From Candidatus Thalassarchaeum sp. (GTDB taxonomy: Archaea > Thermoplasmatota > Poseidoniia > Poseidoniales > Thalassarchaeaceae): a stretch of DNA of 64,000 nt. The notes beneath the pieces are model-generated. The model was given only the letters and a program-made list of their open reading frames with translations. It ran no database searches and was not told the origin of the DNA. Both the position numbers and the translations under genes were made by a program. The first letter of the stretch is position 1, and every line of letters starts with the position of its first letter. The stretch is from positions 44,413 to 108,412 of the forward strand of contig JAKUOA010000006.1 in the NCBI GenBank assembly GCA_022451235.1. The letters are read 5' to 3'. Below are positions 10,110 through 60,633 of the stretch, in pieces.

Positions 10110-13100
10110 ATGCACTTACTGAGAATAGAAGTGGAGAACTTCAAGTCCTTTGGCGGTGAGATTACCATACCCTTCGATGAAGGGTTTACTGCGATAACCG
10201 GCCCTAATGGGTCAGGGAAGTCAAATTCTGGTGATGCCATACAATTCGTACTCGGCACTCGTTCGACAAAAGTCATGCGAGCAGACAATGTTGGCGACTT
10301 AATATTCAACGGTGGAAAGCGCGGTAAGCCTGCCCGTCACATGTCGGTGACTCTAGTTTTTGCAAACAAGCCCGAATTAGGCGGGCGACGAAGGTTACGT
10401 ATCGATGAGGATGAAGCATCATTCACAAGGTCTGTCCGCCTGAACAGAAAGAATCAACCGATTTCATCTTACAAAATTGGGGAACGCAGTGTCACTGCAA
10501 CCGAGATGAGAAGAACTCTTGCAGAAGCCGGATTACACGGCGACGGATACAACATAGTTCTGCAGGGGGACGTAACAAATCTTGCAACCATGACTGATTG
10601 GAAGAGAAGAGGAGTTCTAGAAGAGGTAGCTGGAGTTACTGCTTATGATTCAGAAATCCGCTCAGCAAATAATCAACGTAAAGTGGTTGAGAATGATATT
10701 GAGACTATCGAATTGTTTGAGTCGGACCAGAAGACTCGTTTGAAGAAGTTGGAAAAGGAGAGAGAACAGGCTCTCAAGTATCGCGACCTTAAGGAGCAAT
10801 TAGATCAAGCTAGAATCATATTGGCTCAGGCCAAGTATCGTAACCGAGTCGAAGAGATTCGTATGCTCAATGAAGACCATGGAAAGTATCAGGAAAAGAG
10901 CAACAAGGTCCGTGAAAGTGTCAGAAGTAACGAATCTCGTCTTTTACAACTCGAAGAAGAATTGGTCAATGTCTCTCGTGAACTTGAGGATATGGCGACT
11001 GGAGAATCAAAGGCAGTCATGGATGAGATTCGGACTTTAGAAATCGAATTAGAGACCAGCCGTGATAGAATTGGCGACCAAAACCGAGCCTCTGAAGACG
11101 CGACAGATGAAATCGAGTTTTTCCAAGCCGACCTAGAATCAGCCGAGGCAGCCATTCAACAACTCGTAGACGAAATCGAGGCGGCCAAACAATCCGTCAC
11201 GGATGCCGACAACGCCCTGGATGAGGCGGAACAAAATGAGTCGGAGGCTCGAAAAGCCATTGAATCCGGAGACAAGCATTCCCGTGATTTGAATCGAGCC
11301 TTAGGATTAGCAAATGAGGAACTATCCGAGGTACATGACAAGATGGCTGAAGCCAGACTAGAATCTGATAGAGCCGAGCAAGCGGCAAGAATTGCATCGG
11401 ACAATCTAGCGGATTTGGAGGAACAATACGAGGTCGTATCACTTGAGAGAGACGACCTCGAGCTAACCGGCGAGGGTCTACAAGAAGAAAAGCCGGTAGA
11501 GGATAGAGAATCATTGGCTGTTAAACTAACACAATTACAGAAACAGGAGGTCGCACTTCGCGGCGATCGCGATAGTGCGGAGGAACAATTGAGAAATGCA
11601 AATCGGTCACTTGACCGCGCTCGTGCCGCACAGGAGGCTAGAGCCTCGAAACCAGGTTCCGCAGTAACTCTACGCGCATTATCAAAACTTAGACAGAGCG
11701 GGGAAATCCGGGGAATTCTCGGATCGCTTGGAGAATTGACTTCACCAAAGGATGACTCACACGAAGAGGCATTAGCATTCGCACTTGGTGGCGGTATTAA
11801 CTCAATCGTTGTCAGCGATGATGAGGTTGCTGCAAGTTGTATCAAGTGGCTTGGTGCAAATGGTGGTGGAAGAGCAACATTCCTGCCTCTCAACAAGATT
11901 AGTGCCTCTCGTGCTCAAGGCCGTGCGCTAATGGTTGCTAGAAACCCCGGAATTATTGGATTTGCGCATGACCTATTGGATTACGATGAGGAAATTGAAA
12001 CTGCTGTGCGCTTCGCCTGTAGAAATACATTGATTGTTCAGTCGATGGACGTTGCACGCCGCAATATGGGCGGAGTTAGAATGGTGACTCTTGATGGTTC
12101 AATAGTCGAAGCGACTGGCGCTATGACAGGTGGTTCTTCAGCAAAGGGAACACGTCCTTCATTCGGTGGTGCTGGTGCAGCTGGCGCCGGAATGGAGAAT
12201 CTAGAATCAGCAGTTAACAGAGCCAACTTGAGGTATTCAACAGTGGAAGCTGCACTGAAAGAAATCCGTGACAACATGAATAATCTTCGAAACCAAATTC
12301 ATGGACTCGATGATAGCGATCACTCTGTAAAAGTTAGGAATTGGAAGGCTGATGTTAAGATCGCTCAGAAGCAAGTGGATGATATCTCAAAGAAGGTAGT
12401 CGATGCTCGCAAAGAATATGAGAGATTGGAATCCGCGAGCCAAAACGCTACTGCTGCGGCTGTTGAATCAGAAAAAGAACACACAGCCGCTGTCGATGCT
12501 CGTCGATTAGCCGCGGAGGCATTACAGAATCATACACCTGATCATCTCTCGCAAATTCTTCGAAGCGCTCAGGACACACGAACCGAGGCTGAGCGCACTA
12601 AACTTAGAGCTGAATCTGACATTGTAACCGGTGGCGAGAAACTCAAGGTTCTCGAAGACAGAAAGAAAGATCTCGCCAGGTCTGTTGAGAGACAAAACGA
12701 AATCATTACAGAAGCCACAAAGACGATTGAGAAACTTCAGAATTCAATTCAAAAGGCAGAAGAAAGTCTCAAAGAACTCAAATTACAAGCTTCACAATTC
12801 AATGAAGAGCATCAGATTCTCAGCCAGCGTAAGGACGAGATAGTCGACGAGCGTGCAAGTCTTCGAGCTCATGTAGAACAGATGCAGACTCAGCGTGAAA
12901 CAATCAAAGCGAGATTGGAAGGTCTCGTGGAGAGCATCAGGAACAAGGAAGAGACCTTGGTCGAATTACAGAGTGATTTAGCCGAGAATCAAATCGAACT
13001 TCCTGATTTAGAAATTCAATTGCCAACAGTGGCCGAGGCGGAGAAGGGGGTGCAGGGCCTAGATCGCCGCCTCGGCCAACTCGGCGACGTCAATATGCTA

Positions 13101-14039
13101 GCGATAGAAGACTACGACATAACTGTAGAGAGAATCGCCGGACTCGTCGCCGACGGAAAACTCTGCAAGGAGAGGCATGCAATGTTGGTTAGTCTTGCAG
13201 AACAACTCGAAGACGAGAGAAAGACAAGACTTCTCGCCGTCTTCAATGAAGTCAACCAGAACTTCACTCGTGCCTACAAGTTGCTACAGCCTGGTGGAGA
13301 GGGTGAATTGCAACTTGAGAACACCAAGAATCCATTTGAGGGTGGACTCAGGATGGCTTGTATTCCTCCTGGTAAGAGTAAGAGAACTCGTCGAAGTTTC
13401 CTCTCCGGGGGAGAAAAGTCGATGGCGGCCCTGGCTTTCGTTTTCGCGATCCAAGATTACGAACCTAGCCCATTCTACTACTTTGACGAGGTTGACCAGA
13501 ACCTTGATCCATTCAACGCTGAGCGAATCGCTACTCTCTGTAGAATTCGTAGTACCCACGCTCAATTCATCATGGTGACTCTAAGAAAGGTCAGCCTTAC
13601 ACTTGCTGACCACCACATTGGAATTACCCATGCGGGAGATGGCCGCAGTCGTCGAATTACCGACTTCGACAGAGCAGCTGCAATCGAACTTGGAGAAGAA
13701 TTCGAGGCCGAGCAAGAGGCACTGAAAGAAGCACAAAGTGCCAAGGAAGGAATGGGCGACTTGCCAAGCGCTGAGACCATGCCAAAGGTGCCTGAACCAA
13801 TGGATCGTCCATTGAGCCTAGGCGGCCTTGCCGATAGGGCTGGCGTTGAAGTGTCCGATGATGCTGAAGAAGAGGACTTAGACCCAAGTGAATCAACCAT
13901 GTCTTCACTGAAGGAAAGAACTGACGAATGGAGTGAAGATATCGCAGAGAAGGAAGCAGCCATTCCTCAACAGGAAGAGGAAGAAGAGCAGGTTGACAGC
14001 GAAGCAGCAATCGAGCAGGAGTTGGAGAGAGAAGAATGA
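10110..14039 (+). CDS. smc: Chromosome segregation protein SMC (condensin), with an unusual acidic C-terminal extension of about 150 aa
   Basis: It has the Walker A motif FTAITGPNGSGKSNSGDAIQFVLG. Long coiled coils flank a central hinge. The C-terminal head carries LSGGEKSMAALAFVFA (signature) and YYFDEVD (Walker B). ScpA and ScpB follow directly. Confidence 0.95.
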   Translation: MHLLRIEVENFKSFGGEITIPFDEGFTAITGPNGSGKSNSGDAIQFVLGTRSTKVMRADNVGDLIFNGGKRGKPARHMSVTLVFANKPELGGRRRLRIDEDEASFTRSVRLNRKNQPISSYKIGERSVTATEMRRTLAEAGLHGDGYNIVLQGDVTNLATMTDWKRRGVLEEVAGVTAYDSEIRSANNQRKVVENDIETIELFESDQKTRLKKLEKEREQALKYRDLKEQLDQARIILAQAKYRNRVEEIRMLNEDHGKYQEKSNKVRESVRSNESRLLQLEEELVNVSRELEDMATGESKAVMDEIRTLEIELETSRDRIGDQNRASEDATDEIEFFQADLESAEAAIQQLVDEIEAAKQSVTDADNALDEAEQNESEARKAIESGDKHSRDLNRALGLANEELSEVHDKMAEARLESDRAEQAARIASDNLADLEEQYEVVSLERDDLELTGEGLQEEKPVEDRESLAVKLTQLQKQEVALRGDRDSAEEQLRNANRSLDRARAAQEARASKPGSAVTLRALSKLRQSGEIRGILGSLGELTSPKDDSHEEALAFALGGGINSIVVSDDEVAASCIKWLGANGGGRATFLPLNKISASRAQGRALMVARNPGIIGFAHDLLDYDEEIETAVRFACRNTLIVQSMDVARRNMGGVRMVTLDGSIVEATGAMTGGSSAKGTRPSFGGAGAAGAGMENLESAVNRANLRYSTVEAALKEIRDNMNNLRNQIHGLDDSDHSVKVRNWKADVKIAQKQVDDISKKVVDARKEYERLESASQNATAAAVESEKEHTAAVDARRLAAEALQNHTPDHLSQILRSAQDTRTEAERTKLRAESDIVTGGEKLKVLEDRKKDLARSVERQNEIITEATKTIEKLQNSIQKAEESLKELKLQASQFNEEHQILSQRKDEIVDERASLRAHVEQMQTQRETIKARLEGLVESIRNKEETLVELQSDLAENQIELPDLEIQLPTVAEAEKGVQGLDRRLGQLGDVNMLAIEDYDITVERIAGLVADGKLCKERHAMLVSLAEQLEDERKTRLLAVFNEVNQNFTRAYKLLQPGGEGELQLENTKNPFEGGLRMACIPPGKSKRTRRSFLSGGEKSMAALAFVFAIQDYEPSPFYYFDEVDQNLDPFNAERIATLCRIRSTHAQFIMVTLRKVSLTLADHHIGITHAGDGRSRRITDFDRAAAIELGEEFEAEQEALKEAQSAKEGMGDLPSAETMPKVPEPMDRPLSLGGLADRAGVEVSDDAEEEDLDPSESTMSSLKERTDEWSEDIAEKEAAIPQQEEEEEQVDSEAAIEQELEREE

Positions 14040-15668: not shown

Positions 15669-16964
15669 TTACTCGCCACGAACCTGTTGCAATGCAGACT
15701 CAACCGCTGCCATGGTGATTCTTTCGCCACTTTCCCGAACAATCGCCGCCACAGGCTCGATTTCATTTGGAGAGGCGCCAGCACTGGCAATCATGTTGCG
15801 TAAGTGCAGTTTCATGTGACCCGCCTGTATACCAACTGTTGCAAGAGCCCGAAGAGCACCGAGATTCTGTGCGAGACCTGCAGCAGCCATTACTTTCGCT
15901 AGATCATCTGCGGAGTTAATGCCCAGGAGTGCTACATTTGCTTGGGCTCCTGGGTGGATTGTAATCGCCCCTCCGACTAATCCTACAGCCATTGGTATCT
16001 CAATGGAACCAACTAGGTTCCCATCTGTGTCCTTTTCCCAATGAGTCATTGAACCATATCGTCGCTCATGCGATGCATAGGAGTGGGCACCAGATTCTAC
16101 AGCCCTCCAGTCTTGTCCGCAGGCAATTGCAATGGGCGATATTGCATTCATTATTCCCTTGTTATGGGTAGTTGCACGGAATGGGTCTGCTGCCGCGAAA
16201 TGGTAGGCTTGTAAGACACCATCAATCACTTCTGTACCTCTAGATGAATCGTCACCAGTATCGGACATCTCTTCTGGAGTGAAGGTAGCGCTGACTCTGG
16301 CCAACCTATGGACTGCTAGATTGCTAATTATTCGAAGAATGACAGTTCCTCCAGAGATATTTTCTACTCTTGGAGCAATTGTTTCGGCCATTGTATTGAC
16401 TGCATTTGCTCCCATTGCATCTCGACAATCTACCAGAATGTGAACGATTATCATTGGACCTGAATCTGTTTCGATTATTCTGGCTTCAACATCTCTGCAT
16501 CCTCCACCAAATTTCACTAATATTGGATCGACCTCATTACAGGATTCTACCAATTCTTCTTTAGCAGCAAGAATAGCATCCCGAGATGCCTCTGGGTCTT
16601 CACACCCTACTACCTGAATCTGTCCAATCATGACTGGGTCTGTATTGTTTGAGACAAAGCCACCATTCTTCTGACATCTCTTGGCCATGTTTGAAGCGGC
16701 TGCAACAACACTAGCCTCTTCAACCACAAATGGAATTACATAGTGTTCGCCATCGATAATGAAGTTAGTCGCAACACCGATGGGTAGTGAGTATCTGCCA
16801 ATTACATTCTCAATCATTCTGTCAGCTGTACCCTCGTCCAACTCAGCATCTGCCCAAGCCTGGACTTGTTCATCACTGAGGCCAGCAAGTTCTGCGAGCA
16901 TGGCTCTTCGTTCTGGAATTGATAGTTTGTAGAATCCACTCAATCGGCTGTTGTCAACAGGCAT
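15669..16964 (-). CDS. hmgA: HMG-CoA reductase, class II (bacterial-type)
   Basis: A 431-aa protein. Its N-terminus, LSGFYKLSIPERRAMLAELAGLSDEQ, and overall length match the class II enzymes (Pseudomonas mevalonii type). Its stop abuts the scpB stop. Confidence 0.9.
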   Translation of the reverse strand: MPVDNSRLSGFYKLSIPERRAMLAELAGLSDEQVQAWADAELDEGTADRMIENVIGRYSLPIGVATNFIIDGEHYVIPFVVEEASVVAAASNMAKRCQKNGGFVSNNTDPVMIGQIQVVGCEDPEASRDAILAAKEELVESCNEVDPILVKFGGGCRDVEARIIETDSGPMIIVHILVDCRDAMGANAVNTMAETIAPRVENISGGTVILRIISNLAVHRLARVSATFTPEEMSDTGDDSSRGTEVIDGVLQAYHFAAADPFRATTHNKGIMNAISPIAIACGQDWRAVESGAHSYASHERRYGSMTHWEKDTDGNLVGSIEIPMAVGLVGGAITIHPGAQANVALLGINSADDLAKVMAAAGLAQNLGALRALATVGIQAGHMKLHLRNMIASAGASPNEIEPVAAIVRESGERITMAAVESALQQVRGE

Positions 16965-17331
16965 TGTTTCACCAAACCGTGCGACAACCTTCCGGTTCTA
17001 AGCACTTCGTGGTGACTAATCCCAAATTGCCTATTTTAGACTCAGATGAGGCCCAAGCCAAGAATGCTGATAATCGCCTTCTAATCGGGGCAAAATCAAA
17101 CCGAATAGGTTCATTTCTAGTCTCAATAAAGCGTTAATTTAGCCATTAACGCATTGTTAACGTATTTAGAAAGCGTTAGTAAAGCGTTAATATTTATCGC
17201 TACTATTCAAATTACTGCAAGCCTACTAAACTTTTTATCTATCTGAAAAAACCCAATAATACGTTAATTTCGCATCATTGATGCGTGAGAATACGTGAAT
17301 ATTATGTACCCCTAGGCTCACGTGTGCGATA
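16965..17331. promoter_or_regulatory. AT-rich divergent intergenic region dense in GCGTTAAT / ATTAACGC repeats and other short palindromes. Candidate origin-like or operator cluster.
   Basis: GCGTTAAT-ttagcc-ATTAACGC is a perfect inverted repeat at 17131-17152. Tandem AAAGCGTTA(G/A) repeats lie at 17170-17191. TTAACG is at 17157. ACGTTAAT is at 17260. CGCATCAtTGATGCG is a palindrome at 17270-17284. There is a CGTGA direct repeat and a CACGTG. A TATA-like aatattat lies at 17298-17305. Confidence 0.6.
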
Positions 17332-19287
17332 ATGGCTGAAGGGCCCGCATCGGTACTCGATTTGCCTCCATTACGAGGCAACCCCTTCGATTTACGTCCT
17401 ATCGAAGCAAATCGCGCAGAGTATCTAGTGGGGCGGGATCGATTGCTGGCGGAATGTCGCGAGCACCTAATTTCCCAAACTCCACGAATGCTACTATTGG
17501 TGGGGGATCGTGGATCGGGTAGAACGTCATTCCTCAACGCCCTTGCCTCAACAACATCTCGCCGCCCGTTCATAGGACAATTCTGGCCAGAAGACGATGA
17601 CCCTGTTCAGGGGATAATCCATGAGTTATCTGTATATCTCGGCGGCTTCGATATTCCACCATCTATCCAACAGGCCTCTGACAAGATGGTTGAGATTCTA
17701 GACAAAGAGACAGGAACTTTGCCTCTAGTCGCACTGGATTATCCTGCTAATGTAGATTTGAACCATATGCTATCTCGATTAGCACCTTTACTACAGAGGC
17801 TTCGAGCACTTATCGTGGTCGCAGTTACCCCCTCTCAATTGGCTGGGTTAGATGAGGGGGTGTTGGATATTTTCGACGACCCTCATCATTTACGGAATTT
17901 AGATGAAAAACAAATTCAGATTCTTAGCAATCGTAGAATCTCTCGCGCCGCCAATCAAAAGTGGAATATCAGGGCGAGTCTTCTAACTGCAATTCACCAA
18001 CATACAGATGGTAATCCGCGTAGGATAATTCGCCTATTGAGGGACTTAATCGATGAGCGACATAATCCAGTCGACGGGGGCGTCTTAGATCGGTTAACTA
18101 CCTGGAGAGCTCCACCAGTTCAATCGGAACCCGAAATATTCGAAGAAGAGGAGATAGAATCCGAGATACAAGAACCTACTGAAGAGTTCGAAGAAGTAGA
18201 AATAGAGTCAGAAGATGAAATTTCCCAAATAGATGATTTTGAACTAGAAGAAGAAGAACCCGATGATCTTTGGGATGATGATGACGACGAGGAAGAGTCA
18301 TGGAACGATGAATTCGAGGCACCTGATGAAATTTGGACTACTCCTGAGGAGCCAGAGTCACTAGAAGTTGAAGAGGAAAGATTCCATCAAGCAGAGCAAA
18401 TCCCTGAACCTGAACCTAGCGAAGTGTACCAGAGAGCTGATGATGAGTCTGGATTCTATTTCGTTGAAGAAGGAACAGAGCCGCCTGAATTGCCCGAATC
18501 TAGGAAACCTAAGGGCAATTTTGGACGCTTACTAGGTCGCACACTACAAGCCAATGATAGGATGCCAACAACAGGCGACGATACACCAATTCAAGTCGCT
18601 GAACCTCACAAGAGTTTGGTGCCAAGAACTCCGGTAAAGGAAATGCCTCCCGAAAGCGTAGAGGATGAACAATCGACTGCAAGAATCGATACATCGGTAG
18701 AGTCTGGTATAGAAGAGTCCGTTTTCCATGACGACCAGTCAGTTTGGATGGTTGATTCAGATTCCAAATCTACCTTGCCCAACAATCCTAGGGTATTCGA
18801 ACCAATAGCACCAGAGCCAGAGCCAGTTGTCGAAGAAATTGATACTGAATGGTTCGTCGATGACGCACCTGTAGAAGATGAATTCGAACCAATTCCTGAG
18901 CCTGTTTTTGAGCCGGAACCCCCCCAAGTTAGTATCCCATCAATTCCAACCACACCACCACCAACACCTGTACAAGTCCCGGTCCAAGTTCCAGTTTCAT
19001 TAGGTCCGACATGGGAACCAGATTTACCATTCAATCCCATCGTTTTGCAAACACTGACCGAGGCCGAGAGAATGATTGTCGAGGCCTCGTCGATGCGCGA
19101 AGTCTCTCCCTCGGATAATGAATTACAAGCCCGTTTAGAGGTCGGTCGTTCCCGTCTTTCGCAGATATACAATGGAATGCGACGCAAGGGTCTTCTGTCG
19201 GTAAGAAAGCAAGGTAGAACTCGATACTTCAAACTCAGTGAGGCTGCAAATCAGCACTTGCGTGGGGCGCCACAGGAGGCTGCATAA
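17332..19287 (+). CDS. Orc1/Cdc6-family AAA+ / winged-helix protein with degenerate Walker A and Walker B and a long acidic, Pro-rich disordered insert
   Basis: The N-terminus (NPFDLRPIEANRAEYLVGRDRLLAECREHL ... LLLVGDRGSGRTSFLNAL) parallels the canonical Cdc6 in this same window (PLSYDWVPPSLIGRDEEL ... AVVMGPVGSGKTVLTRRF). Walker A has R in place of K. The Walker B position reads LVALDY. Sensor-like segments read ALIVVAVTPSQ and GNPRRIIRLLRDLI (cf. Cdc6 GDARMAIELLEAAI). About 300 aa of D/E-rich then P-rich low complexity follow. The C-terminus is winged-helix-like (LSQIYNGMRRKGLLSVRKQGRTRYFKLSE). Confidence 0.55.
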   Translation: MAEGPASVLDLPPLRGNPFDLRPIEANRAEYLVGRDRLLAECREHLISQTPRMLLLVGDRGSGRTSFLNALASTTSRRPFIGQFWPEDDDPVQGIIHELSVYLGGFDIPPSIQQASDKMVEILDKETGTLPLVALDYPANVDLNHMLSRLAPLLQRLRALIVVAVTPSQLAGLDEGVLDIFDDPHHLRNLDEKQIQILSNRRISRAANQKWNIRASLLTAIHQHTDGNPRRIIRLLRDLIDERHNPVDGGVLDRLTTWRAPPVQSEPEIFEEEEIESEIQEPTEEFEEVEIESEDEISQIDDFELEEEEPDDLWDDDDDEEESWNDEFEAPDEIWTTPEEPESLEVEEERFHQAEQIPEPEPSEVYQRADDESGFYFVEEGTEPPELPESRKPKGNFGRLLGRTLQANDRMPTTGDDTPIQVAEPHKSLVPRTPVKEMPPESVEDEQSTARIDTSVESGIEESVFHDDQSVWMVDSDSKSTLPNNPRVFEPIAPEPEPVVEEIDTEWFVDDAPVEDEFEPIPEPVFEPEPPQVSIPSIPTTPPPTPVQVPVQVPVSLGPTWEPDLPFNPIVLQTLTEAERMIVEASSMREVSPSDNELQARLEVGRSRLSQIYNGMRRKGLLSVRKQGRTRYFKLSEAANQHLRGAPQEAA

Positions 19288-22721: not shown

Positions 22722-23897
22722 TTAGCCTCTCAAAAATTCTCTCTCAATTCTGCTTTCGATGGTTGCTGGTGCAGTATTGTTCATTGTGATATGTTGAGTT
22801 CTTCCTCTTCCAACGTTGGTATTTGCTGCCCTAGTTTCGATTAGTCCTTCGGTTTCCAACGTCTTCAGATGCTTCCAGAAAGTAGTGTAACTTCGCGGTT
22901 TTACCTCATATTCTTCACAGACTAGTAAGTAGAGCTTGTGAGCATCTCCGCTCGAGACGTATTCAGCCTTCTTCAAACGTCTACAAATACCTAGCAAAGA
23001 CAATTTTTGGTGTTGTGATAAATTGTCAACCGAACTCGGCTCCAGTGATGCCTTTCTCAAGGTACTAGGTCGCACATCATCAGGTAGAACTTCACCACGA
23101 CCCTCTTTCTCGGTTCGGCGGATGGCCGCTTCCAGTAGTTCAATCGCCATCCGCGCATCTCCTGATTCAGCAGCGAATTGACCAATTTTAGTTAGAGTTT
23201 CATCGGCTACCGACCCAGTTCGACAGGCAACCTCTACCCTTTGGCTAGCGATACCTGTCAGAGTCTCCGCATTGTAGGGTTGCATCTCGACGATATTTGA
23301 TTGCCCCAAGCGTGAGATAATCGCTGGCTCAAAGAGCTTCATCAAAGCTAAATTCTGACTAACAAGAATCATCGAAATCGTTCCTTGGTTTTCTTTTCCT
23401 TCATCGATTCTCAATAATTTGTAGATTAGATCCGACTGATCACGATTTACCAAAATATCAGCCTCGTCCAAAATCAACAGAAGATGACTATCGTGTGTAA
23501 TCAGATTTCTTCGAATAGATTGGATGATTTCACTTGGACTAAATCCTCTCTCCGGATGTCGTTCGTCGAGGCTGAGTGCAATCTGTTGCAATACCTGTGG
23601 ACCGGTTGGATGATTACGACAGTTTACGTGAGTTATCACGGTTTTTCTTCTTCCTTCGAGATGACGTTGAATATCTTCTGCAAAGCGACGTGTCAGAACA
23701 GTCTTTCCTGAGCCAACCGGACCCATTACGACCGCTTGGCAACTGGTTTCATGATTCTCAATTTGCGAAAATATGGCAGCCATATCGCCTAATTCTTCGT
23801 CTCTACCTATCAGAGATGGCGGAACCCAGTCGTACGAAAGAGGGGCCTTATCCAGCAGGACTTTGCCTGCTCCGATGCGGTCGAGGTATCCTGCCAT
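22722..23897 (-). CDS. cdc6: Orc1/Cdc6 replication initiator (canonical)
   Basis: It has the Walker A motif VMGPVGSGKTVLTRRF, the Walker B motif LILDEAD, the sensor 2 motif GDARMAIELLEAA, and a C-terminal winged helix. Confidence 0.9.
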   Translation of the reverse strand: MAGYLDRIGAGKVLLDKAPLSYDWVPPSLIGRDEELGDMAAIFSQIENHETSCQAVVMGPVGSGKTVLTRRFAEDIQRHLEGRRKTVITHVNCRNHPTGPQVLQQIALSLDERHPERGFSPSEIIQSIRRNLITHDSHLLLILDEADILVNRDQSDLIYKLLRIDEGKENQGTISMILVSQNLALMKLFEPAIISRLGQSNIVEMQPYNAETLTGIASQRVEVACRTGSVADETLTKIGQFAAESGDARMAIELLEAAIRRTEKEGRGEVLPDDVRPSTLRKASLEPSSVDNLSQHQKLSLLGICRRLKKAEYVSSGDAHKLYLLVCEEYEVKPRSYTTFWKHLKTLETEGLIETRAANTNVGRGRTQHITMNNTAPATIESRIEREFLRG

Positions 23898-23997
23898 TCA
23901 AGGGAGTCTTGCTCTAGCCGTTCTTAGAGATATTTACTGCAAAGCGCGCGCATACAGGCGTCTGTGACCCGCGCCGGGAGAATTCACTCAATCCCGA

Positions 23998-27786: not shown

Positions 27787-27869
27787 ATTTTAGACACCTT
27801 GTCAATAATGCCTTCTGGCTTATATGAAGGCGGTGCCGGAGATTGATTTAAACCTAAGATGGCTAACCG

Positions 27870-28097
27870 TTGTTTATGGAAGAACAAACCTCAGACAAAG
27901 ACTGGACTACGCTGTTGATTCTATCTATCCTATTGGGTGGATTGGGAGTTGACCGATTTTATGCAGGGCACATCGGCCTCGGTGTACTGAAGCTACTTAC
28001 TGTAGGCGGCTGCGGAATTTGGGCGCTTATCGACATCATCTTGGTTGCAACTGGAAAGTTCTCAGACGCTGATGGTCTACCGATTGTCAACCAGTGA
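27870..28097 (+). CDS. TM2-domain protein
   Basis: It contains LSILLGGLGVDRFYAGHIGLGVLKLLTVGGCGIWALIDIIL, the TM2 signature (GxDRFY ... GGxGIWxxID). Confidence 0.75.
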   Translation: MFMEEQTSDKDWTTLLILSILLGGLGVDRFYAGHIGLGVLKLLTVGGCGIWALIDIILVATGKFSDADGLPIVNQ

Positions 28098-28123
28098 AAG
28101 CTGCTTACTCTGAATAACCAAGT

Positions 28124-28140
28124 CCTTCCCATAGGGAAGG
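28124..28140 (+). terminator. Hairpin CCTTCCC-ATA-GGGAAGG 27 nt after the TM2 gene stop. Possible terminator.
   Basis: It is a perfect 7-bp stem with a 3-nt loop. It lies between the TM2 stop and the mutS promoter motif. Confidence 0.35.
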
Positions 28141-28201
28141 TTAGCACAGGATTGCTTATGCACCCTAGGCTCACAGACACAGCCCACGCGCAGCGTAAGC
28201 A

Positions 28202-35021: not shown

Positions 35022-35108
35022 TGGCGCGGCAGGGGAGATTCGAACTCCCGAGGTGAAACACCACTGGATTAGCAATCCAGCGCAATGGCCAGGCTATGCG
35101 ACTGCCGC
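35022..35108 (-). tRNA. tRNA-Ser (anticodon GCU) with long variable arm. A CCA is encoded.
   Basis: The minus-strand read is GCGGCAG ... CTGGATTGCTAATCCAG (anticodon loop TTGCTAA gives GCU) ... a long variable arm ... GGGAGTTCGAATCTCCC (T-arm) ... CTGCCGC G CCA. The 7-bp acceptor stem pairs perfectly. Confidence 0.85.
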
Positions 35109-55830: not shown

Positions 55831-58800
55831 TCATAGATTAATTCGAAATGCACAGATAGGACAACGCGTCATTTTTAGGTCGAATGCGACATCAAATTGA
55901 CTCCCACATTCTGGACAAAGCACTGGCTTGTTCAAGGGAGGGAGTCCAGGTAAAGTCGTTGCATCTCCCATCGGCGGTAATGGCTTAGCGACCACCCCGT
56001 CGTTTGTTGCAGTCTGTGTCATTTCTGGTATAGTCGTAGGTATTTCAGCCATCTCTGGTTGTGTTGTTCGCCGTTGTCGTCTTTCCCGTCTTGGTGATGT
56101 GTTCTCTACATTGATATCTACAACTTCGACAATGGAAGAAGTGTCTATTGCCTCAACGGGAATATCATCCTCATCGATAACATCCACTACATCATCTTCC
56201 AACATAATAACTCCTTGAACGCTTTTTCTTCTCCGACCACCGATCCAACGTATTGCACGTCCTGACATTACCGCCAAAACAATGGTACAGAGCAACAAAA
56301 CCGCAATTGCCACTCCGCCGAGTAAAATATTGAAACTTCCTTCGTCTAAACCAAGCTGGAATCGGAGTTCTTCTAGAATGTCCGTTGGACCTGTGTTTGG
56401 CTTACTATCGTCAATTACTGCCCTTATGACCCAACCTTGGGTTGAGGTGTGAATAATCACAGCCTCACCACTCGCAGATGAGCGACTTACTGAATGTAAC
56501 CAACCATCAGAAATCCGATTCGATATTGCCATCCAAGGAGTCTCTGAATTAATCATTCCGTACTGAACTTGAGGTCCACCTGGGCCCACCATATCATGCA
56601 TTACTTGAATTCCTCGAGAGGTTTCTATGAAGACAATTTGAGACAGACCTCTAGCAGAGAATTGCATAGAAGAATTTTCTATGATGTTGAAGGTATCATC
56701 AACTATACGAGTGATTAGTTCACTATCTATTCCCTCTCCCTCTTTCCAAGCAACAACTAGTCTATCTTCTTCGTCTATTGTGTTCACCTTCATCTGGGGC
56801 AAAGAGGCATAATCGCCGACCGCCTTCTTGTAAGTCCACGATGATTGTTTGATATCTCCATGAGCATACCAAAGACCTAGTCGGTCATTTCCTGTGGTGT
56901 CGTTACGCATTGATTGGTAGAGGATATGACCATCCTCCTCGCCATACTCAATTTGTACTGGATCTGTATACCCCGCAATCACATCGATATCAGAAATAGC
57001 ATTTGGAGTAAGTCTCCAATCGTTAGAAGAAGTGGGAGCGTCTGCTTCTAAGATGAATATACTAGTTAGATCCTGAAAACTGCCGCCAGTCAACAAGTCA
57101 CGATGATATCCAGCAACTAATAATTTTGTTCCATCAACATCGATGTCGATACCCCAATATTTACCATCGGATAATAGAATTGGATCCATCAAATCTTGGA
57201 TTGGTCGCATCTCACAAGCAGAGTCTATTGTGGAGTATGAAACCGTCTGCTTAAGATAACCACTAGTATCTAGGAAGCGCCGACTCCAAACTATGTGTGC
57301 GATACCATCTGAGGTAGGGGCCGCGACAAAATCACCAGACCATTTTTCTTCCAACATATTTGAGCAGGCAGTCATTCCTTTGTTGGAGTTGAGTCTGTAA
57401 AGCGCCAGCCCTCCATCTTTCGATGTTACGACAATTCCTTCTCCATCTAAGTCGATTACTTCGACGGGTGTTTCTCCAGTTTGGAAGTTTAATCCTCTTC
57501 CTCCTGAGACTGTGCTCTTTTCGATCAGTATGCTCCATTCTGCTTGATTATTTGACCAGTCGATATCCGATAGAACAGGTCCGCTAAGGCTGATTCGGAA
57601 TTTGAAAGCGCCACTTTCTTCATTTGTTTGGGCGAATGAAACTGTCTCAGCATAACCACCTTCTATTCTAGGGATTGTAGTTGAGGAGGTTAACTCCCAT
57701 CCTCTTTCAGTGTAAAGGTGGAGTTGCGCCTCTATTTGTTCAGCAGCTGATGAACCTAAATTATCTACACGGGCATTAATTTTGAACTGCTCTCCCGGTC
57801 TTGGAATTGTAGGAGTGGTGGTAAATGCGCCGTTTGAAAAAGCCAAATCGACTCCTTCCGGTCTATCAATCACATCAAATTCAATACTTTGGTCATTATT
57901 TGTCTCATCGATTTCGAGTATTGCATCACCTGGGTCTAAGGCGATACTAAGCTCACGTTGACCTACAGATAGAGGATTCCAGTAAAGTGTCACATCTACA
58001 ATATCGCCGGAGTCGATTGTGGGTATGGTCAACTCATATTTTCTGGTACCTTCCTCAAGTAGGAAAACAACGACATTAGTAGCTGATTCATCGCCATCAT
58101 TACGAATTTCAGCGCTAACATCGACGAAGGAGTTAACGTAGGTTTCTGACAGAGGTATACCCCATTCTGATACAGTTATTCCACTTCTGAACATCAAGTC
58201 AGGAGCAGGTGGTTGATTATCGATATCCAAAGTGACCCTGACTTCCTCAGAGCGAACACTTGTGCCACTGACGAAACGTAATGATATGCGATGTGAACCG
58301 TCTGGATGTTCGGTAGAATCCCAAATGAAATTGAACATATCCGTTGTGCCACCTGAGCCAGTGTAGGTTCTTTCATCAACCCAATCTTCCTTACCTATTC
58401 GCCACTGCAGGGTGCCACCATTAACGGTTTCATATTCGCCTTCAAATTGGACATTACCTTCAACGAAATTTTGTCCACTTGGGCTGTCCAAAGTTAGAGA
58501 TACTCGACCAATATCGTGATTTTGTCTTTGTTTATTGCTCCATTGATCCCATTCATTACGAGCCTGTACCGAGATTTTGATTTCCAAGGCGTTAATTTCA
58601 TCCTCTTCAAAGTCAGGAATAGAGAAATCAGTAGTCCAATTTACTGTGCCTTGAGCAGTGTGCCAATCGACAAGAATTTCTTCCTGAGTCGGCGACCCCT
58701 CAGGTTTGTGGGTGTAGGTGATTTTGACCTGAACTTCTTCTATCGTTCCATTTGTCTCCGCATCTTCGTCGATATGCCCTCTGACTGAATAGGTCTCACC

Positions 58801-60633
58801 TTCTACTAGCCAAGAATCCTCAATCGGCCTTTCATAAACTAACCAATCACCCTCTCCTGGAGGTGGCGGTTCTGTTGTGTTCCCTCCTCCGTTATTTCCT
58901 CCACCATCTCCTAACAGAGCGGATAAAATCAGATTCCCATCAATTATTCCAAATCCATATTTCTCATTCCAAGTATCCGAAATATCTGGTTCAGATGCCT
59001 CCCCCTTCGGTTCGGAATTTTCTCTCAATAATTCCTTTACTTCGGCAGGATTCAGATCTAGTCCTTCCTCTTCGCTAATTTGTAAAATCACTGCTACCAA
59101 ACCTGCTACTGCGGGACATGCCATACTCGTCCCACTCATTTCCGTATAGCTATCTTCAGCAAGTGGTTTTGGTGTACCAGGTAATTGGCTTGATGAAGCA
59201 GCATGCGCTGCAGAATTCATATCGCTTCCTGGTGCTACCACGTCTGGCTTGAGTTCCTCTTCTCTGTCGTCGTCCCCATCGTCTTCTCTAGGGCCGGAAT
59301 TAGAGTATGAAGCAATCGAATCGTCGCCTCTATCGATGGTATCTTTATCATCAATTGACCCAACTGTAATTGCTTGGTCTGCGGCTCCTACAGAAGTGAC
59401 CCTTCTTCTTCCATCATTTCCAATCGCTGCGACGGGAACTATACCTGCCTCAGCCGCTTGGTTTACCGCACGGGCGTCTGCAGCAGACCCGTTATCTCCG
59501 GGGTCATCGCCATTTGGATCACCGAGGCTACCGAAAGACATTGACATGACTTGGATTCCTTCGCTAGAGTCATTATTACCCCAGTCGGTATCTACATTGG
59601 CAGCTACCCAATTTATTCCCTTTAGTGTTGCAGCGGAATTGGTGCCCCCTGTATCAGTCATGACTTTGACATCCACTAGGTATGCGCCTGGGGCATAACC
59701 CTGATTTATTCGTCTTGAATCTCCTGTGCCAAGTGCAATTCCTGCTACATGAGTCCCATGTCCATCTCCATCATCAGGATCGTGCGTGCCTTCGTTATTG
59801 CATTCATTTTGATTCAACGAAGTGGCATCACAACCGGCGATCCACTTTGGGTCTGGAAGATCTTCGGGATCATTCTCATTATCATCGTTATCATCCGAAA
59901 AATCGTCTAAGGAGAAGTGTTCATTATCGACTCCTGTATCGAGAATAGCAATTACAATCCCCGAACCATCGTAACCGAAGTCTCGCATAGTTTCGTCATA
60001 TCGTTCTGAATCTCGTACCTTGGAACCTCTAGTAGCGGTATCTAGTGATGGAACAATTACATTCTGTTCCTCGACCATAACAACCCCATCAAGTTGCCAA
60101 ATCTCAATTAAAGCACTAACTGGCACATGGTCGAGAACTATACTGTCTAGAATATCCATTTCGAAGAACCAAGATCCCTCTTGCTCCCAACCATGAGATT
60201 CGAGAACTTCTCTTAGAGCAGCCGTATCGCTAGGGCCTGGGTGCCAAGCGTAATCAACAACGATTGCAACAGTAGGTCTACCATCTAGTCCAATTATTGC
60301 TGTAGAGGAAACTGATTCACGTTGACCAGCGATGATTCTTTGCAAACGATCATCCATACCATCAGAATCCAAATCGTACCAATAGCTGAACCACCACCCC
60401 TCTTCCTCTACAGGGAATCCTGCATCAAAGGGAGGACTTCTAACAGATCTATCTATGGGGTCGCATATGACCTCTCCACACATTAATGCAGGTGGCCAAT
60501 TTCCCGGCCTTTCTTTGCTAGGCAAATCTTCGGTTTGAATGGCTGTGGATGCAGATACCCCTACTCCCATATCCATGACTAGAATCATTGCAACTAGCAC
60601 CAGCGGGGTGAGGTTTAGGCGTCTTCCAGACAT
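55831..60633 (-). CDS. Giant (1600 aa) secreted subtilisin-like serine protease (S8) with CARDB-like and beta-rich domains, a C-terminal TM and a cytoplasmic Zn-ribbon tail
   Basis: It has a signal peptide. The catalytic residues are all present: Asp (IAILDTGVD), His (HGTHVAGIALG), Asn (AAIGNDG) and Ser (GTSMACPAVAGL). It contains a CARDB-like ILEIDETNND. The C-terminal TM reads LGGVAIAVLLLCTIVLAV. The tail ends CPECGSQFDVAFDLKMTRCPICAF. Confidence 0.85.
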   Translation of the reverse strand: MSGRRLNLTPLVLVAMILVMDMGVGVSASTAIQTEDLPSKERPGNWPPALMCGEVICDPIDRSVRSPPFDAGFPVEEEGWWFSYWYDLDSDGMDDRLQRIIAGQRESVSSTAIIGLDGRPTVAIVVDYAWHPGPSDTAALREVLESHGWEQEGSWFFEMDILDSIVLDHVPVSALIEIWQLDGVVMVEEQNVIVPSLDTATRGSKVRDSERYDETMRDFGYDGSGIVIAILDTGVDNEHFSLDDFSDDNDDNENDPEDLPDPKWIAGCDATSLNQNECNNEGTHDPDDGDGHGTHVAGIALGTGDSRRINQGYAPGAYLVDVKVMTDTGGTNSAATLKGINWVAANVDTDWGNNDSSEGIQVMSMSFGSLGDPNGDDPGDNGSAADARAVNQAAEAGIVPVAAIGNDGRRRVTSVGAADQAITVGSIDDKDTIDRGDDSIASYSNSGPREDDGDDDREEELKPDVVAPGSDMNSAAHAASSSQLPGTPKPLAEDSYTEMSGTSMACPAVAGLVAVILQISEEEGLDLNPAEVKELLRENSEPKGEASEPDISDTWNEKYGFGIIDGNLILSALLGDGGGNNGGGNTTEPPPPGEGDWLVYERPIEDSWLVEGETYSVRGHIDEDAETNGTIEEVQVKITYTHKPEGSPTQEEILVDWHTAQGTVNWTTDFSIPDFEEDEINALEIKISVQARNEWDQWSNKQRQNHDIGRVSLTLDSPSGQNFVEGNVQFEGEYETVNGGTLQWRIGKEDWVDERTYTGSGGTTDMFNFIWDSTEHPDGSHRISLRFVSGTSVRSEEVRVTLDIDNQPPAPDLMFRSGITVSEWGIPLSETYVNSFVDVSAEIRNDGDESATNVVVFLLEEGTRKYELTIPTIDSGDIVDVTLYWNPLSVGQRELSIALDPGDAILEIDETNNDQSIEFDVIDRPEGVDLAFSNGAFTTTPTIPRPGEQFKINARVDNLGSSAAEQIEAQLHLYTERGWELTSSTTIPRIEGGYAETVSFAQTNEESGAFKFRISLSGPVLSDIDWSNNQAEWSILIEKSTVSGGRGLNFQTGETPVEVIDLDGEGIVVTSKDGGLALYRLNSNKGMTACSNMLEEKWSGDFVAAPTSDGIAHIVWSRRFLDTSGYLKQTVSYSTIDSACEMRPIQDLMDPILLSDGKYWGIDIDVDGTKLLVAGYHRDLLTGGSFQDLTSIFILEADAPTSSNDWRLTPNAISDIDVIAGYTDPVQIEYGEEDGHILYQSMRNDTTGNDRLGLWYAHGDIKQSSWTYKKAVGDYASLPQMKVNTIDEEDRLVVAWKEGEGIDSELITRIVDDTFNIIENSSMQFSARGLSQIVFIETSRGIQVMHDMVGPGGPQVQYGMINSETPWMAISNRISDGWLHSVSRSSASGEAVIIHTSTQGWVIRAVIDDSKPNTGPTDILEELRFQLGLDEGSFNILLGGVAIAVLLLCTIVLAVMSGRAIRWIGGRRRKSVQGVIMLEDDVVDVIDEDDIPVEAIDTSSIVEVVDINVENTSPRRERRQRRTTQPEMAEIPTTIPEMTQTATNDGVVAKPLPPMGDATTLPGLPPLNKPVLCPECGSQFDVAFDLKMTRCPICAFRINL

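What the first reader, a model, noticed from the sequence alone, without database searches (positions are those of the whole stretch)
16965..17331. Repeat-dense AT-rich intergenic region next to a divergent Orc1/Cdc6 paralog: candidate origin-like element or operator cluster
This is the longest non-coding stretch in the window, at about 370 bp, and it is AT-rich. It is packed with one short motif in both orientations. GCGTTAAT-6nt-ATTAACGC is a perfect inverted repeat at 17131-17152. Tandem AAAGCGTTA copies lie at 17170-17191. TTAACG and ACGTTAAT variants are also present. There is also a 15-nt palindrome CGCATCAtTGATGCG, CGTGA direct repeats, and CACGTG. Archaeal origins typically sit next to an orc1/cdc6 gene and consist of an AT-rich unwinding element flanked by inverted initiator-binding repeats. 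Here the adjacent gene is an Orc1/Cdc6-family protein. The canonical cdc6 5 kb away has no such repeats upstream. The motif does not resemble known ORB or mini-ORB consensus, so this could instead be a dense transcription-factor operator array for the hmgA / orc1-like divergent promoters.
Basis: partly seen in the sequence, partly recalled or inferred. Interest (0 to 1): 0.7.

Follow-up and report, generated by a model that had tools for sequence, protein, structure and literature searches.

The report
Conserved GCGTTAA-box array beside AAA+/wHTH gene
The longest gap between genes in this Marine Group II archaeal window holds eight fixed copies of a GCGTTAA box, kept across the whole order just upstream of an uncharacterised ATPase-plus-DNA-binding gene, and it is most likely that protein's own docking and control site, possibly the still-unknown replication origin.

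Summary
The 367-bp hmgA–X spacer (16965-17331) is the longest non-coding stretch in the window. It holds 6 of the window's 8 AWRCGTTA matches, plus two GCGTGA variants.

The array is conserved. All 73 related Poseidoniales (MGIIb) loci carry eight boxes, within ±4 bp of fixed positions relative to the start codon of the downstream gene X. The sequence between boxes and the hmgA side drift. MGIIa and deeper relatives, whose X is only 21-28% identical, keep the same boxes.

X is not a recognisable Orc1/Cdc6 family member. It has:
- a roughly 300-aa acidic disordered linker;
- an ArsR/SmtB-type winged helix with an invariant recognition helix.

No canonical ORB occurs in the window or in 1.2 Mb of related loci. 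There is no skew inflection. Genes converge on the site, and MGIIa lacks an AT-rich spacer.

Best reading (0.5): a multi-site array bound by X that controls X's promoter. An origin (0.25) is not excluded.

The parts
16965..17331 (.). The hmgA–X intergenic region (367 bp, GC 0.38). It is the longest non-coding stretch in the window.
16965..17127 (.). The hmgA-proximal part of the spacer. Its length varies from 63 to 227 bp in relatives and its sequence is not conserved.
   Evidence: mean majority fraction 0.46
17128..17138 (+). Box 1, AAAGCGTTAAT. It is the left arm of the 8-6-8 inverted repeat.
   Evidence: The slot is occupied in 73/73 loci at -193 to -201 from the X ATG.
17145..17155 (-). 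Box 2, AATGCGTTAAT on the minus strand. It is the right arm of the inverted repeat.
   Evidence: 73/73
17156..17166 (-). Box 3, AATACGTTAAC on the minus strand, 11 bp from box 2.
   Evidence: 72/73
17170..17180 (+). Box 4, AAAGCGTTAGT.
   Evidence: 73/73
17181..17191 (+). Box 5, AAAGCGTTAAT, 11 bp from box 4.
   Evidence: 73/73
17192..17257 (.). Spacer between the distal and proximal box clusters. In MGIIb its length is conserved (57-65 bp), its sequence is not, and it is always more AT-rich than the locus. In MGIIa it is short (about 30 bp) and GC-rich.
   Evidence: GC below locus GC in 73/73, mean -0.175
17258..17268 (+). Box 6, AATACGTTAAT.
   Evidence: 70/73 at -68 to -70
17280..17290 (+). 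Box 7, the variant GATGCGTGAGA.
   Evidence: 69/73 at -46 to -48
17290..17300 (+). Box 8, the variant AATACGTGAAT. It abuts and overlaps the TATA-like element.
   Evidence: 73/73 at -36 to -38
17298..17306 (+). Conserved TATA-like element AATATTATG, 26-34 nt before the X start codon. This implies a leaderless or short-leader X mRNA (inferred).
   Evidence: consensus GAAtaTTAtG.Act; conservation 0.83. A similar conserved AATATnTCT element sits at -38 of cdc6.
17332..19287 (+). Gene X (651 aa). Residues 10-250 form an initiator-clade AAA+ module. Residues about 260-560 are an acidic disordered linker with a conserved short helix at 396-410. Residues 565-645 form an ArsR/SmtB-type winged helix-turn-helix.
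15669..16964 (-). hmgA (HMG-CoA reductase), the divergent neighbour. The array is not anchored to it.
22722..23897 (-). The canonical Orc1/Cdc6 gene, 5.4 kb from the array and syntenic with it throughout Poseidoniales. Its own flanks (12 bp and 100 bp) hold no boxes, no ORB and no AT-rich stretch.

Best explanation
The spacer is a conserved multi-site docking array for the protein encoded immediately downstream (X).

Proposed mechanism:
1. X's C-terminal ArsR-type winged helix reads the box (A/T)AA(A/T)GCGTTAA(T/C). Reading as a dimer at the 8-6-8 inverted repeat is inferred.
2. Boxes spaced 10-11 bp apart place neighbouring molecules on roughly one DNA face.
3. The N-terminal Orc1-like AAA+ modules, tethered by a long acidic linker, let bound molecules oligomerise. 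This bridges the distal cluster (boxes 1-5) and the proximal cluster (boxes 6-8).
4. Boxes 7 and 8 sit directly upstream of, and overlap, the TATA-like element of X. Occupancy therefore sets transcription of X and its operon, giving autoregulation.

Shown: the array, its order-wide conservation, its fixed register to X's start, and the domain make-up of X.
Inferred: that X is the binder, that it oligomerises, and the sign of the regulation.

This reading does not preclude the same nucleoprotein complex having a chromosomal role such as origin or organising centre.
For: - Eight box slots are occupied in 69-73 of 73 MGIIb loci, within ±4 bp relative to the X ATG. The hmgA side varies from 63 to 227 bp.
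- Box columns are 0.87 conserved and the TATA-like element 0.83, against 0.46-0.57 for all other spacer columns.
- The same boxes precede X in Poseidonia (MGIIa), Poseidoniaceae-like and 'Poseidoniia' contigs, where the X N-terminus is only 21-28% identical.
- X's recognition helix (R606, R608, S610, Q611) is invariant in 52 diverse members. This parallels the invariant DNA box.
- The C-terminal domain is an ArsR/SmtB/HlyU-type wHTH by sequence and by fold.
- Some source annotations call family members 'ArsR family regulator'.
- There is one cluster per locus in 76 of the 78 genome loci of up to 18 kb (the other two are short fragments with no boxes), and none elsewhere in the 64-kb window.
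- An Orc1/Cdc6 paralogue acting purely as a transcription regulator has precedent: Sulfolobus Orc1-2 (PMC6061795, PMC9738581).
Against: - No binding data exist. X as the binder rests on co-occurrence and co-conservation only.
- Eight sites in two clusters, 140-200 bp from the start codon, is far more than archaeal autoregulators usually need.
- The orientation of the proximal boxes is flipped between MGIIb (same direction as boxes 4-5) and MGIIa (inverted), and their distance to the TATA-like element differs. A strict promoter-occlusion mechanism is therefore not conserved.
- The rest of the genome could not be scanned, so a wider regulon, or uniqueness of the site, is unknown.
Confidence: 0.5

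Rival explanations
1. The array is the chromosomal replication origin of Poseidoniales. On this reading non-ORB GCGTTAA boxes recruit X, an Orc1-like AAA+ protein, and/or canonical Orc1. The AT-rich spacer melts, and the proximal boxes autoregulate X, as DnaA boxes and ORBs do at dnaA and cdc6 promoters.
For: - It is the only repeat-dense non-coding region in the window, and the longest gap in a very compact genome.
- It is syntenic order-wide with Orc1/Cdc6 (5 kb away) and with smc-scpA-scpB.
- Canonical Orc1/Cdc6 has no room for an origin at its own flanks.
- No canonical ORB occurs in the window or in 1.22 Mb of related loci. Sister Methanomassiliicoccales do have ORBs beside orc1/cdc6.1 (PMC4153887).
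- X's ATPase fold is closest to Orc1/Cdc6, ORC, TnsC and MuB, and a profile match to the local Cdc6 gives 94% probability.
- In MGIIb a 57-65 bp spacer with unconserved sequence is more AT-rich than the locus in 73/73 cases.
- Lineage-specific initiators are known, for example WhiP at Sulfolobus oriC3 (PMC3607249).
Against: - There is no skew change across the site once gene strand is modelled: +0.010 ± 0.008, against a strand effect of 0.105 ± 0.007.
- Only 31% of coding bases are co-oriented with forks leaving the site. Genes converge on it.
- In MGIIa the spacer is about 30 bp and GC-rich, and the only AT-rich stretch is the box array itself.
- In MGIIb the boxes flanking the spacer are in direct, not inverted, orientation.
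- X has an ArsR-type DNA-binding domain and a degenerate ATPase site.
- A second Orc1/Cdc6 paralogue and the rest of the genome could not be examined.
Confidence: 0.25
2. The array is a centromere-like or chromosome-organising site. X would bind and spread or bridge there, for partition or for loading the adjacent SMC-ScpAB complex. This would be analogous to repeat-array centromeres that double as operators of their own operon.
For: - Order-wide linkage to smc-scpA-scpB immediately to the left.
- Two clusters of short boxes phased at 10-11 bp bracket a promoter-proximal region.
- X has an oligomerisation-prone AAA+ module of the type that forms DNA filaments, such as TnsC and MuB, among its top structural neighbours.
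- The resemblance to plasmid parC/ParR arrays and to ArsR-like AspA is recalled from general knowledge and was not tested here.
Against: - No ParA, ParB or SegAB-like partner is seen in the conserved neighbourhood.
- There is no evidence of additional sites or of spreading.
- The linkage to smc may simply reflect conserved synteny of the whole region.
Confidence: 0.1
3. The boxes are operators for a different factor, not X. Examples would be a regulator of hmgA and isoprenoid-lipid synthesis, or canonical Orc1. On this reading X's adjacency is incidental.
For: The promoters are divergent, and the true binder is untested. The distal cluster lies 140-200 bp from X's start, closer to the middle of the spacer.
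Against: - The array keeps register with X, not with hmgA.
- Boxes 7 and 8 abut X's TATA-like element.
- Array and X co-occur in every lineage sampled, including those with 21-28% identity.
- X's recognition helix is invariant.
Confidence: 0.1

Closest known systems
Archaeal oriC with ORB/mini-ORB elements bound by Orc1/Cdc6 (e.g. Sulfolobus oriC1, Pyrococcus oriC; Methanomassiliicoccales ORBs in PMC4153887)
   Same: A cluster of repeated protein-binding boxes in both orientations lies in an unusually long intergenic region. It sits directly upstream of a gene for an AAA+ plus winged-helix protein whose promoter the boxes overlap. In MGIIb there is an AT-rich spacer. A canonical orc1/cdc6 gene lies in the conserved neighbourhood.
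   Different: The box (AAAGCGTTAAT, about 11 bp) bears no resemblance to the ORB consensus CTTCCAGTGGAAACGAAAGGGGT, and no ORB occurs anywhere nearby. The adjacent gene is not an Orc1/Cdc6 family member. No skew or gene-orientation signature is present. The spacer is not AT-rich in MGIIa.
Sulfolobus/Saccharolobus Orc1-2, a non-initiator Orc1/Cdc6 paralogue acting as a global DNA-damage transcription regulator (PMC6061795, PMC9738581)
   Same: An initiator-type AAA+ module with an ISM-like insert plus a winged-helix domain is used for sequence-specific promoter binding rather than for origin firing.
   Different: Orc1-2 is a bona fide Orc1/Cdc6 family member with a Cdc6-type winged helix and a short hexanucleotide site spread over a regulon. 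X has an ArsR-type wHTH, a 300-aa acidic linker, a degenerate ATPase site, and, as far as seen, one eight-box array at its own gene.
ArsR/SmtB-family repressors (HlyU, BigR, SmtB, CzrA, NolR)
   Same: The C-terminal domain has the same fold and detectable sequence similarity. The 8-6-8 inverted repeat is the kind of site a dimeric wHTH reads, and the sites lie at its own promoter.
   Different: ArsR proteins are roughly 100-120-aa stand-alone dimers with one or two operators. X is 500-1000 aa with an AAA+ module and eight boxes. It scores below the NCBIfam cutoff (22.5 against 55 bits).
Bacterial DnaA/DnaA-box arrays and plasmid iteron origins (general knowledge, not tested here)
   Same: Arrays of 9-11-bp boxes, some at roughly one-helical-turn spacing and in both orientations, lie next to and partly overlap the promoter of the gene for an AAA+ (DnaA) or winged-helix (Rep) binder, which autoregulates.
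   Different: There is no homology of DNA-binding domain or box. Replication from this site is not demonstrated.

Membership tests
Archaeal ORB-type replication origin | ORB or mini-ORB consensus elements (core TCCAnTGGAAA, often with a G-string) | tested here: not met
   TTCCASTGGAAAY with up to 3 mismatches gives 51 matches in the window against 59.9 expected. None has 1 mismatch or fewer, and none is in the spacer. Only 13 scattered matches with 1 mismatch or fewer occur in 1.22 Mb of 88 related loci, and none is positionally conserved.
Archaeal ORB-type replication origin | Directly adjacent orc1/cdc6 (or whiP) initiator gene | tested here: inconclusive
   The adjacent gene X is Orc1-like only at fold and remote-profile level. 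The true Orc1/Cdc6 gene is 5.4 kb away but is syntenic in all lineages.
Archaeal ORB-type replication origin | AT-rich unwinding element flanked by inverted initiator sites | tested here: inconclusive
   In MGIIb the 57-65-bp spacer is AT-richer than the locus in 73/73 cases, but it is flanked by same-orientation boxes. In MGIIa the flanking boxes are inverted, but the spacer is about 30 bp and GC-rich.
Archaeal ORB-type replication origin | Nucleotide-skew inflection or gene co-orientation away from the site | tested here: not met
   The side effect on GC skew is +0.010 ± 0.008 (not significant) after the gene-strand term of 0.105 ± 0.007. Only 31% of coding bases are co-oriented. The test covers 64 kb only, so it is weak.
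Archaeal ORB-type replication origin | Replication initiates there (marker frequency, 2D gels) | not testable with these tools
   This needs read-coverage profiles on closed MGII genomes, or experiments.
Orc1/Cdc6 protein family (for gene X) | Matches the family models (TIGR02928, PF22703 Cdc6_lid, PF09079 Cdc6_C) | tested here: not met
   Only AAA_16 at 23.9 bits (cutoff 32.6) and nSTAND1 at 19.9 bits hit, with no Cdc6 models. The real Cdc6 in the window scores 226.9 bits on TIGR02928. phmmer over 1.84 billion representatives finds 98 relatives; those examined share X's length and domain layout, and the ones that carry names are Poseidoniales/Poseidoniia hypothetical, ATP-binding or ArsR-family proteins.
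Orc1/Cdc6 protein family (for gene X) | Initiator-clade AAA+ fold with an extra helical insert (ISM) between beta2 and beta3 | tested here: met
Orc1/Cdc6 protein family (for gene X) | Canonical Walker A GKT/S and Walker B DE catalytic residues | tested here: not met
   Walker A is GxxGSG-R-T, with R in 45/52 and K in 7/52. Walker B D136 is followed by Y/F/V-P with no Glu.
Orc1/Cdc6 protein family (for gene X) | C-terminal Cdc6-type winged-helix domain contiguous with the lid | tested here: not met
   The C-terminal profile hits ArsR/SmtB proteins (5e-6 to 2e-4), while the Orc1-1 winged helix scores only E about 1. All 50 top Foldseek hits but one (a ribosomal chain) are ArsR/SmtB/MarR-type regulators. 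hhalign to the Cdc6 winged helix gives 4%. The domain is separated from the lid by a roughly 300-aa disordered linker.
ArsR/SmtB transcription regulators (for gene X) | ArsR-type wHTH fold with recognition helix and wing | tested here: met
   The AF2 C-terminal model has pLDDT 93. Foldseek gives HlyU 4k2e at 1e-4 with TM 0.64, followed by SmtB, SqrR, CzrA and NolR. phmmer and hmmsearch hit HlyU and BigR.
ArsR/SmtB transcription regulators (for gene X) | Reaches the curated family threshold; small stand-alone dimeric sensor | tested here: not met
   NF033788 scores 22.5 bits against a cutoff of 55. X is 651 aa (472-1012 aa across the family) with an AAA+ module.

The most novel reading that the evidence does not exclude
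The hmgA–X spacer is the long-sought replication origin of Marine Group II archaea. On this reading the origin is defined not by ORB elements but by an array of GCGTTAA boxes. A lineage-specific fusion protein reads the boxes: an Orc1-like AAA+ module, an acidic disordered linker and an ArsR-type winged helix. This protein would have taken over, or would share, origin recognition with the canonical Orc1/Cdc6 encoded 5 kb away.
Probability: 0.25. Interest if true: 0.85.

Novelty: new variant of a known kind. Interest (0 to 1): 0.62.

Why it matters
Marine Group II (Poseidoniales) are among the most abundant archaea in the surface ocean and have never been cultured. I found no published replication origin or characterised regulator for them.

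This result defines a precise cis element conserved across the whole order, and a candidate cognate protein family that no Pfam or NCBIfam family model covers and whose few source names are hypothetical, ATP-binding or ArsR-family.

If the element is only an autoregulatory site, it is an unusually elaborate one. It would show an initiator-type AAA+ fold recruited to transcription control through a swapped DNA-binding domain.

If it is the origin, it would be a non-ORB archaeal origin with a non-canonical recognition factor. It would also give an anchor for growth-rate (peak-to-trough) estimates of MGII from metagenomes.

Both readings can be tested directly with public read data and one recombinant domain.

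Tried and rejected
1. Chance or low-complexity artefact: rejected by shuffles and by order-wide positional conservation.
2. Known RNA or tRNA in the spacer: Rfam and ARAGORN find only tRNA-Ser at 35022-35108.
3. Canonical ORB anywhere near: none.
4. Origin at the cdc6 flanks: the upstream 60-100 bp holds only a conserved TATA-like element and a GC-rich palindrome.
5. Mobile-element or viral origin of X or the array: there are no X relatives in IMG/VR. The palindrome's 46 viral matches are at about chance level and lack arrays.
That repeat lies on gene-poor, eukaryote-like contigs, most of those listed coming from one metagenome (Ga0209679). Only 5 of 120 loci were the MGII spacer, so the scan says nothing about a regulon.
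7. hmgA-only operator: rejected because the array is anchored to X.
8. The first alignment (A1) was too diverse for locus finding, so A2 was used instead.
9. The supplement of PMC3914693, checked for the Orc1 copy number in MGII, is not held.
10. Whole-genome skew, Z-curve and genome-wide box scans were impossible, because only up to 20-kb pieces of the closed contigs can be fetched.
11. Which Orc1 paralogue class the window's Cdc6 belongs to stayed ambiguous.

Full report
**Organism and setting**

The window comes from a Marine Group II archaeon. Proteins identical to the 651-aa ORF are named "Candidatus Thalassarchaeum sp." (MGIIb, Poseidoniales), and they occur on contigs up to 1.5 Mb.

The local gene order is smc (10110-14039), scpA-like, scpB, then hmgA on the minus strand (15669-16964). 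The 367-bp spacer follows. After it come gene X (17332-19287), DUF357 and mscS on the plus strand. Then, on the minus strand, come eIF2-gamma, S6e, a bona fide Orc1/Cdc6 (22722-23897; TIGR02928 at 226.9 bits) and dph2.

The genome is very compact. The only ORF-free gap longer than the spacer (27787-28201) contains a 75-aa TM2-type ORF. The spacer is therefore the longest non-coding stretch in the window.

**Checking the observation**

The core repeat is best written (A/T)nAA(A/T)GCGTTAA(T/C).

- Six of the eight AWRCGTTA matches in the whole 64-kb window lie within 17129-17266.
- Shuffling the spacer gives a mean of 0.08-0.15 matches, with a maximum of 3 in 20,000 trials.
- Two further copies are GCGTGA variants at 17280-17300.
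- The window holds no other intergenic repeat cluster and no Rfam family apart from one tRNA.

**Conservation**

X's family alignment retrieved 78 loci from GTDB species representatives, all Poseidoniales. In 73 of them the hmgA–X spacer is complete.

- All 73 spacers carry 4-9 CGTTAA copies, although spacer GC ranges from 0.26 to 0.51 and the X N-terminus drops to 44% identity.
- Eight slots are occupied in 69-73 of 73 loci. Their positions stay constant within ±4 bp relative to X's start codon.

| Box | Position from X ATG | Orientation |
|---|---|---|
| 1 | about -200 | forward |
| 2 | -185 | reverse |
| 3 | -174 | reverse |
| 4 | -158 | forward |
| 5 | -147 | forward |
| 6 | -70 | forward |
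| 7 | -48 | forward |
| 8 | -38 | forward |

- Boxes 2/3 and 4/5 are 11 bp apart, and boxes 7/8 are 10 bp apart.
- Box columns are 0.87 conserved. A TATA-like element just after box 8 (window AATATTATG, 17298-17306) is 0.83 conserved. All other columns score 0.46-0.57.
- The hmgA side varies from 63 to 227 bp. The array is therefore anchored to X, not to hmgA.

Very distant X homologues (21-28% N-terminal identity) show the same synteny and the same boxes. They come from Poseidonia sp. (MGIIa), Poseidoniaceae and "Poseidoniia" contigs. In these lineages the proximal boxes are inverted and the spacer is shorter.

**What gene X is**

Family models do not place X in Orc1/Cdc6. The only hits are AAA_16 and nSTAND1, both below cutoff, and no Cdc6 NCBIfam model matches.

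An exhaustive phmmer search of 1.84 billion representatives finds just 98 relatives. Those examined share X's length and domain layout. Where the source gives a name, they are called hypothetical, "ATP-binding" or "ArsR family regulator".

AlphaFold2 with a 52-sequence alignment gives two confident domains (residues 10-250 and 565-645, pLDDT above 94). A disordered, very acidic linker of about 300 residues joins them, and it contains one conserved short helix at 396-410.

N-terminal domain:
- Foldseek also puts Orc1-1 first, but by a small margin.
- A profile-profile comparison with the MGIIb Cdc6 profile gives 94% probability over 216 columns. The alignment spans the LVGRD motif, the P-loop, Walker B, sensor 1 and the lid.
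- The model has two helices between strands 2 and 3, where initiator-clade AAA+ proteins carry their specific insert. This is an inference.
- The active site is degenerate. Walker A is GSG-R-T in 45 of 52 members, and Walker B Asp is followed by Tyr/Phe/Val-Pro rather than Glu.

C-terminal domain:
- It is an ArsR/SmtB/HlyU-type winged helix by sequence and by fold. All top-50 Foldseek hits but one (a ribosomal chain) are ArsR/SmtB/MarR-type regulators.
- The Cdc6 winged helix is not significantly matched.
- Its recognition helix (R606, R608, S610, Q611) is invariant across the family. This mirrors the invariance of the DNA box.

X is thus a chimera of an Orc1-like AAA+ module and an ArsR-like DNA reader. 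It is not a divergent Orc1/Cdc6 in the family sense.

**Origin or operator: evidence for an origin**

- It is the only complex repeat array in the window, and the longest gap.
- It has order-wide synteny with Orc1/Cdc6 and smc-scpAB.
- Orc1/Cdc6's own flanks are too short and carry no repeats.
- Canonical ORBs are absent from the window and from 1.22 Mb of related loci. The sister order Methanomassiliicoccales has near-consensus ORBs beside orc1/cdc6.1 (PMC4153887).
- In MGIIb there is a length-conserved spacer with unconserved sequence that is AT-richer than its locus in 73/73 cases.

**Origin or operator: evidence against an origin**

- A regression of per-gene GC skew shows a strong gene-strand term (0.105 ± 0.007). 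There is no significant change across the site (+0.010 ± 0.008; third positions +0.021 ± 0.017).
- Only 31% of coding bases are co-oriented with forks that would leave the site. The cumulative-skew maximum near 16 kb simply tracks this gene convergence.
- In MGIIa the spacer is about 30 bp and GC-rich, and the only AT-rich stretch is the array itself.
- In MGIIb the boxes bracketing the spacer are direct, not inverted.
- The DNA-binding domain is of a transcription-factor type.
- The skew and orientation tests are weak, because only 64 kb is covered and archaeal skews are small.

**Origin or operator: evidence for the operator reading**

- The array keeps a fixed register to X's start codon.
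- Boxes 7 and 8 abut the conserved TATA-like element, 26-34 nt before the ATG. A comparable conserved AATATnTCT element sits at -38 of cdc6.
- There is precedent in an Orc1 paralogue that is purely a transcription regulator (PMC6061795, PMC9738581).

**Verdict on the mechanism**

I commit to a multi-site docking and autoregulatory array for X as the best-supported mechanism, at confidence 0.5. The origin reading is a live rival at 0.25. It is not mutually exclusive, because initiator boxes overlap initiator promoters in known origins. Smaller weight goes to a centromere or SMC-loading role and to a different binder.

**Dead ends**

- No X relatives exist in IMG/VR, and the palindrome's viral matches are at about chance level.
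It recovered the MGII spacer only 5 times in 120 loci.
- No paper in the library describes an MGII origin or this motif.
- Whole-genome skew and genome-wide box scans could not be run, because only pieces of up to 20 kb can be fetched from the closed contigs.

**Novelty and interest**

The kind of object is familiar: a repeated-box array beside the gene of its AAA+/winged-helix binder. This instance, however, has a new box, a new unannotated protein family with an unusual domain fusion, and order-wide conservation in an abundant uncultured lineage whose origin is unknown.

I rate it a new variant of a known kind, with interest 0.62. Simple experiments and public read data can decide between the readings.

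Noticed in passing
window 23898-23997 (and orthologous positions in L003, L020, L024, L029, L034, L058, L074): Between the dph2 stop and the cdc6 start lies a conserved TATA-like AATATnTCTAAGAACG at about -38. It is preceded in many MGIIb lineages by a GC-rich alternating purine-pyrimidine palindrome (CGCGCGCGT-CACAGACGCGTGT-ATGCGCGCGCG). This could be a terminator for dph2 or an operator for cdc6.
   Followed up: partly
window 17310-17320 and about 28160-28172: The 11-nt string CCTAGGCTCAC occurs just upstream of both X and the mutS-like gene at 28202. At X it is not conserved in other loci.
   Followed up: no
window 58418-58431 (-) and 58585-58598 (+): Two isolated box-like matches (13.6 and 14.2 bits) lie 167 bp apart inside the 1600-aa ORF 55831-60633. 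They are probably chance, but they are the only other high-scoring sites in the window.
   Followed up: no
window 27870-28097 (+): An unlisted 75-aa ORF with a TM2-domain-like sequence (GLGVDRFYAGHIGLGVLKLL) fills most of the other long apparent gap.
   Followed up: partly
window 18517-18561 (X residues 396-410) and residue W472: The 300-aa acidic disordered linker of X contains a conserved short helix (F397, L400, invariant R403) and a near-invariant Trp. These could be short linear motifs for a partner protein.
   Followed up: no
L127, L128, L131, L132 (MGIIa / Poseidoniia loci): These lineages carry an extra uncharacterised gene of about 350 aa, with no Pfam hit, between X and DUF357. They also carry a PIN_9 gene where MGIIb has mscS.
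   Followed up: no
L134-L253 (e.g. L134 320-410 and 630-720; L172 5180-5270): Many contigs, most of those listed from one metagenome (Ga0209679), carry a dispersed or tandem repeat (about 313-327 bp period) rich in TTAACGCGTTAA. The contigs are gene-poor and eukaryote-like. The repeat is unrelated to X but matches the same palindrome pattern.
   Followed up: partly
window 17332-19287 (X), Walker A residues 58-66: The P-loop lysine is replaced by arginine in 45 of 52 family members and Walker B lacks the catalytic Glu. This suggests a nucleotide-binding switch or pseudo-ATPase rather than a motor.
   Followed up: partly
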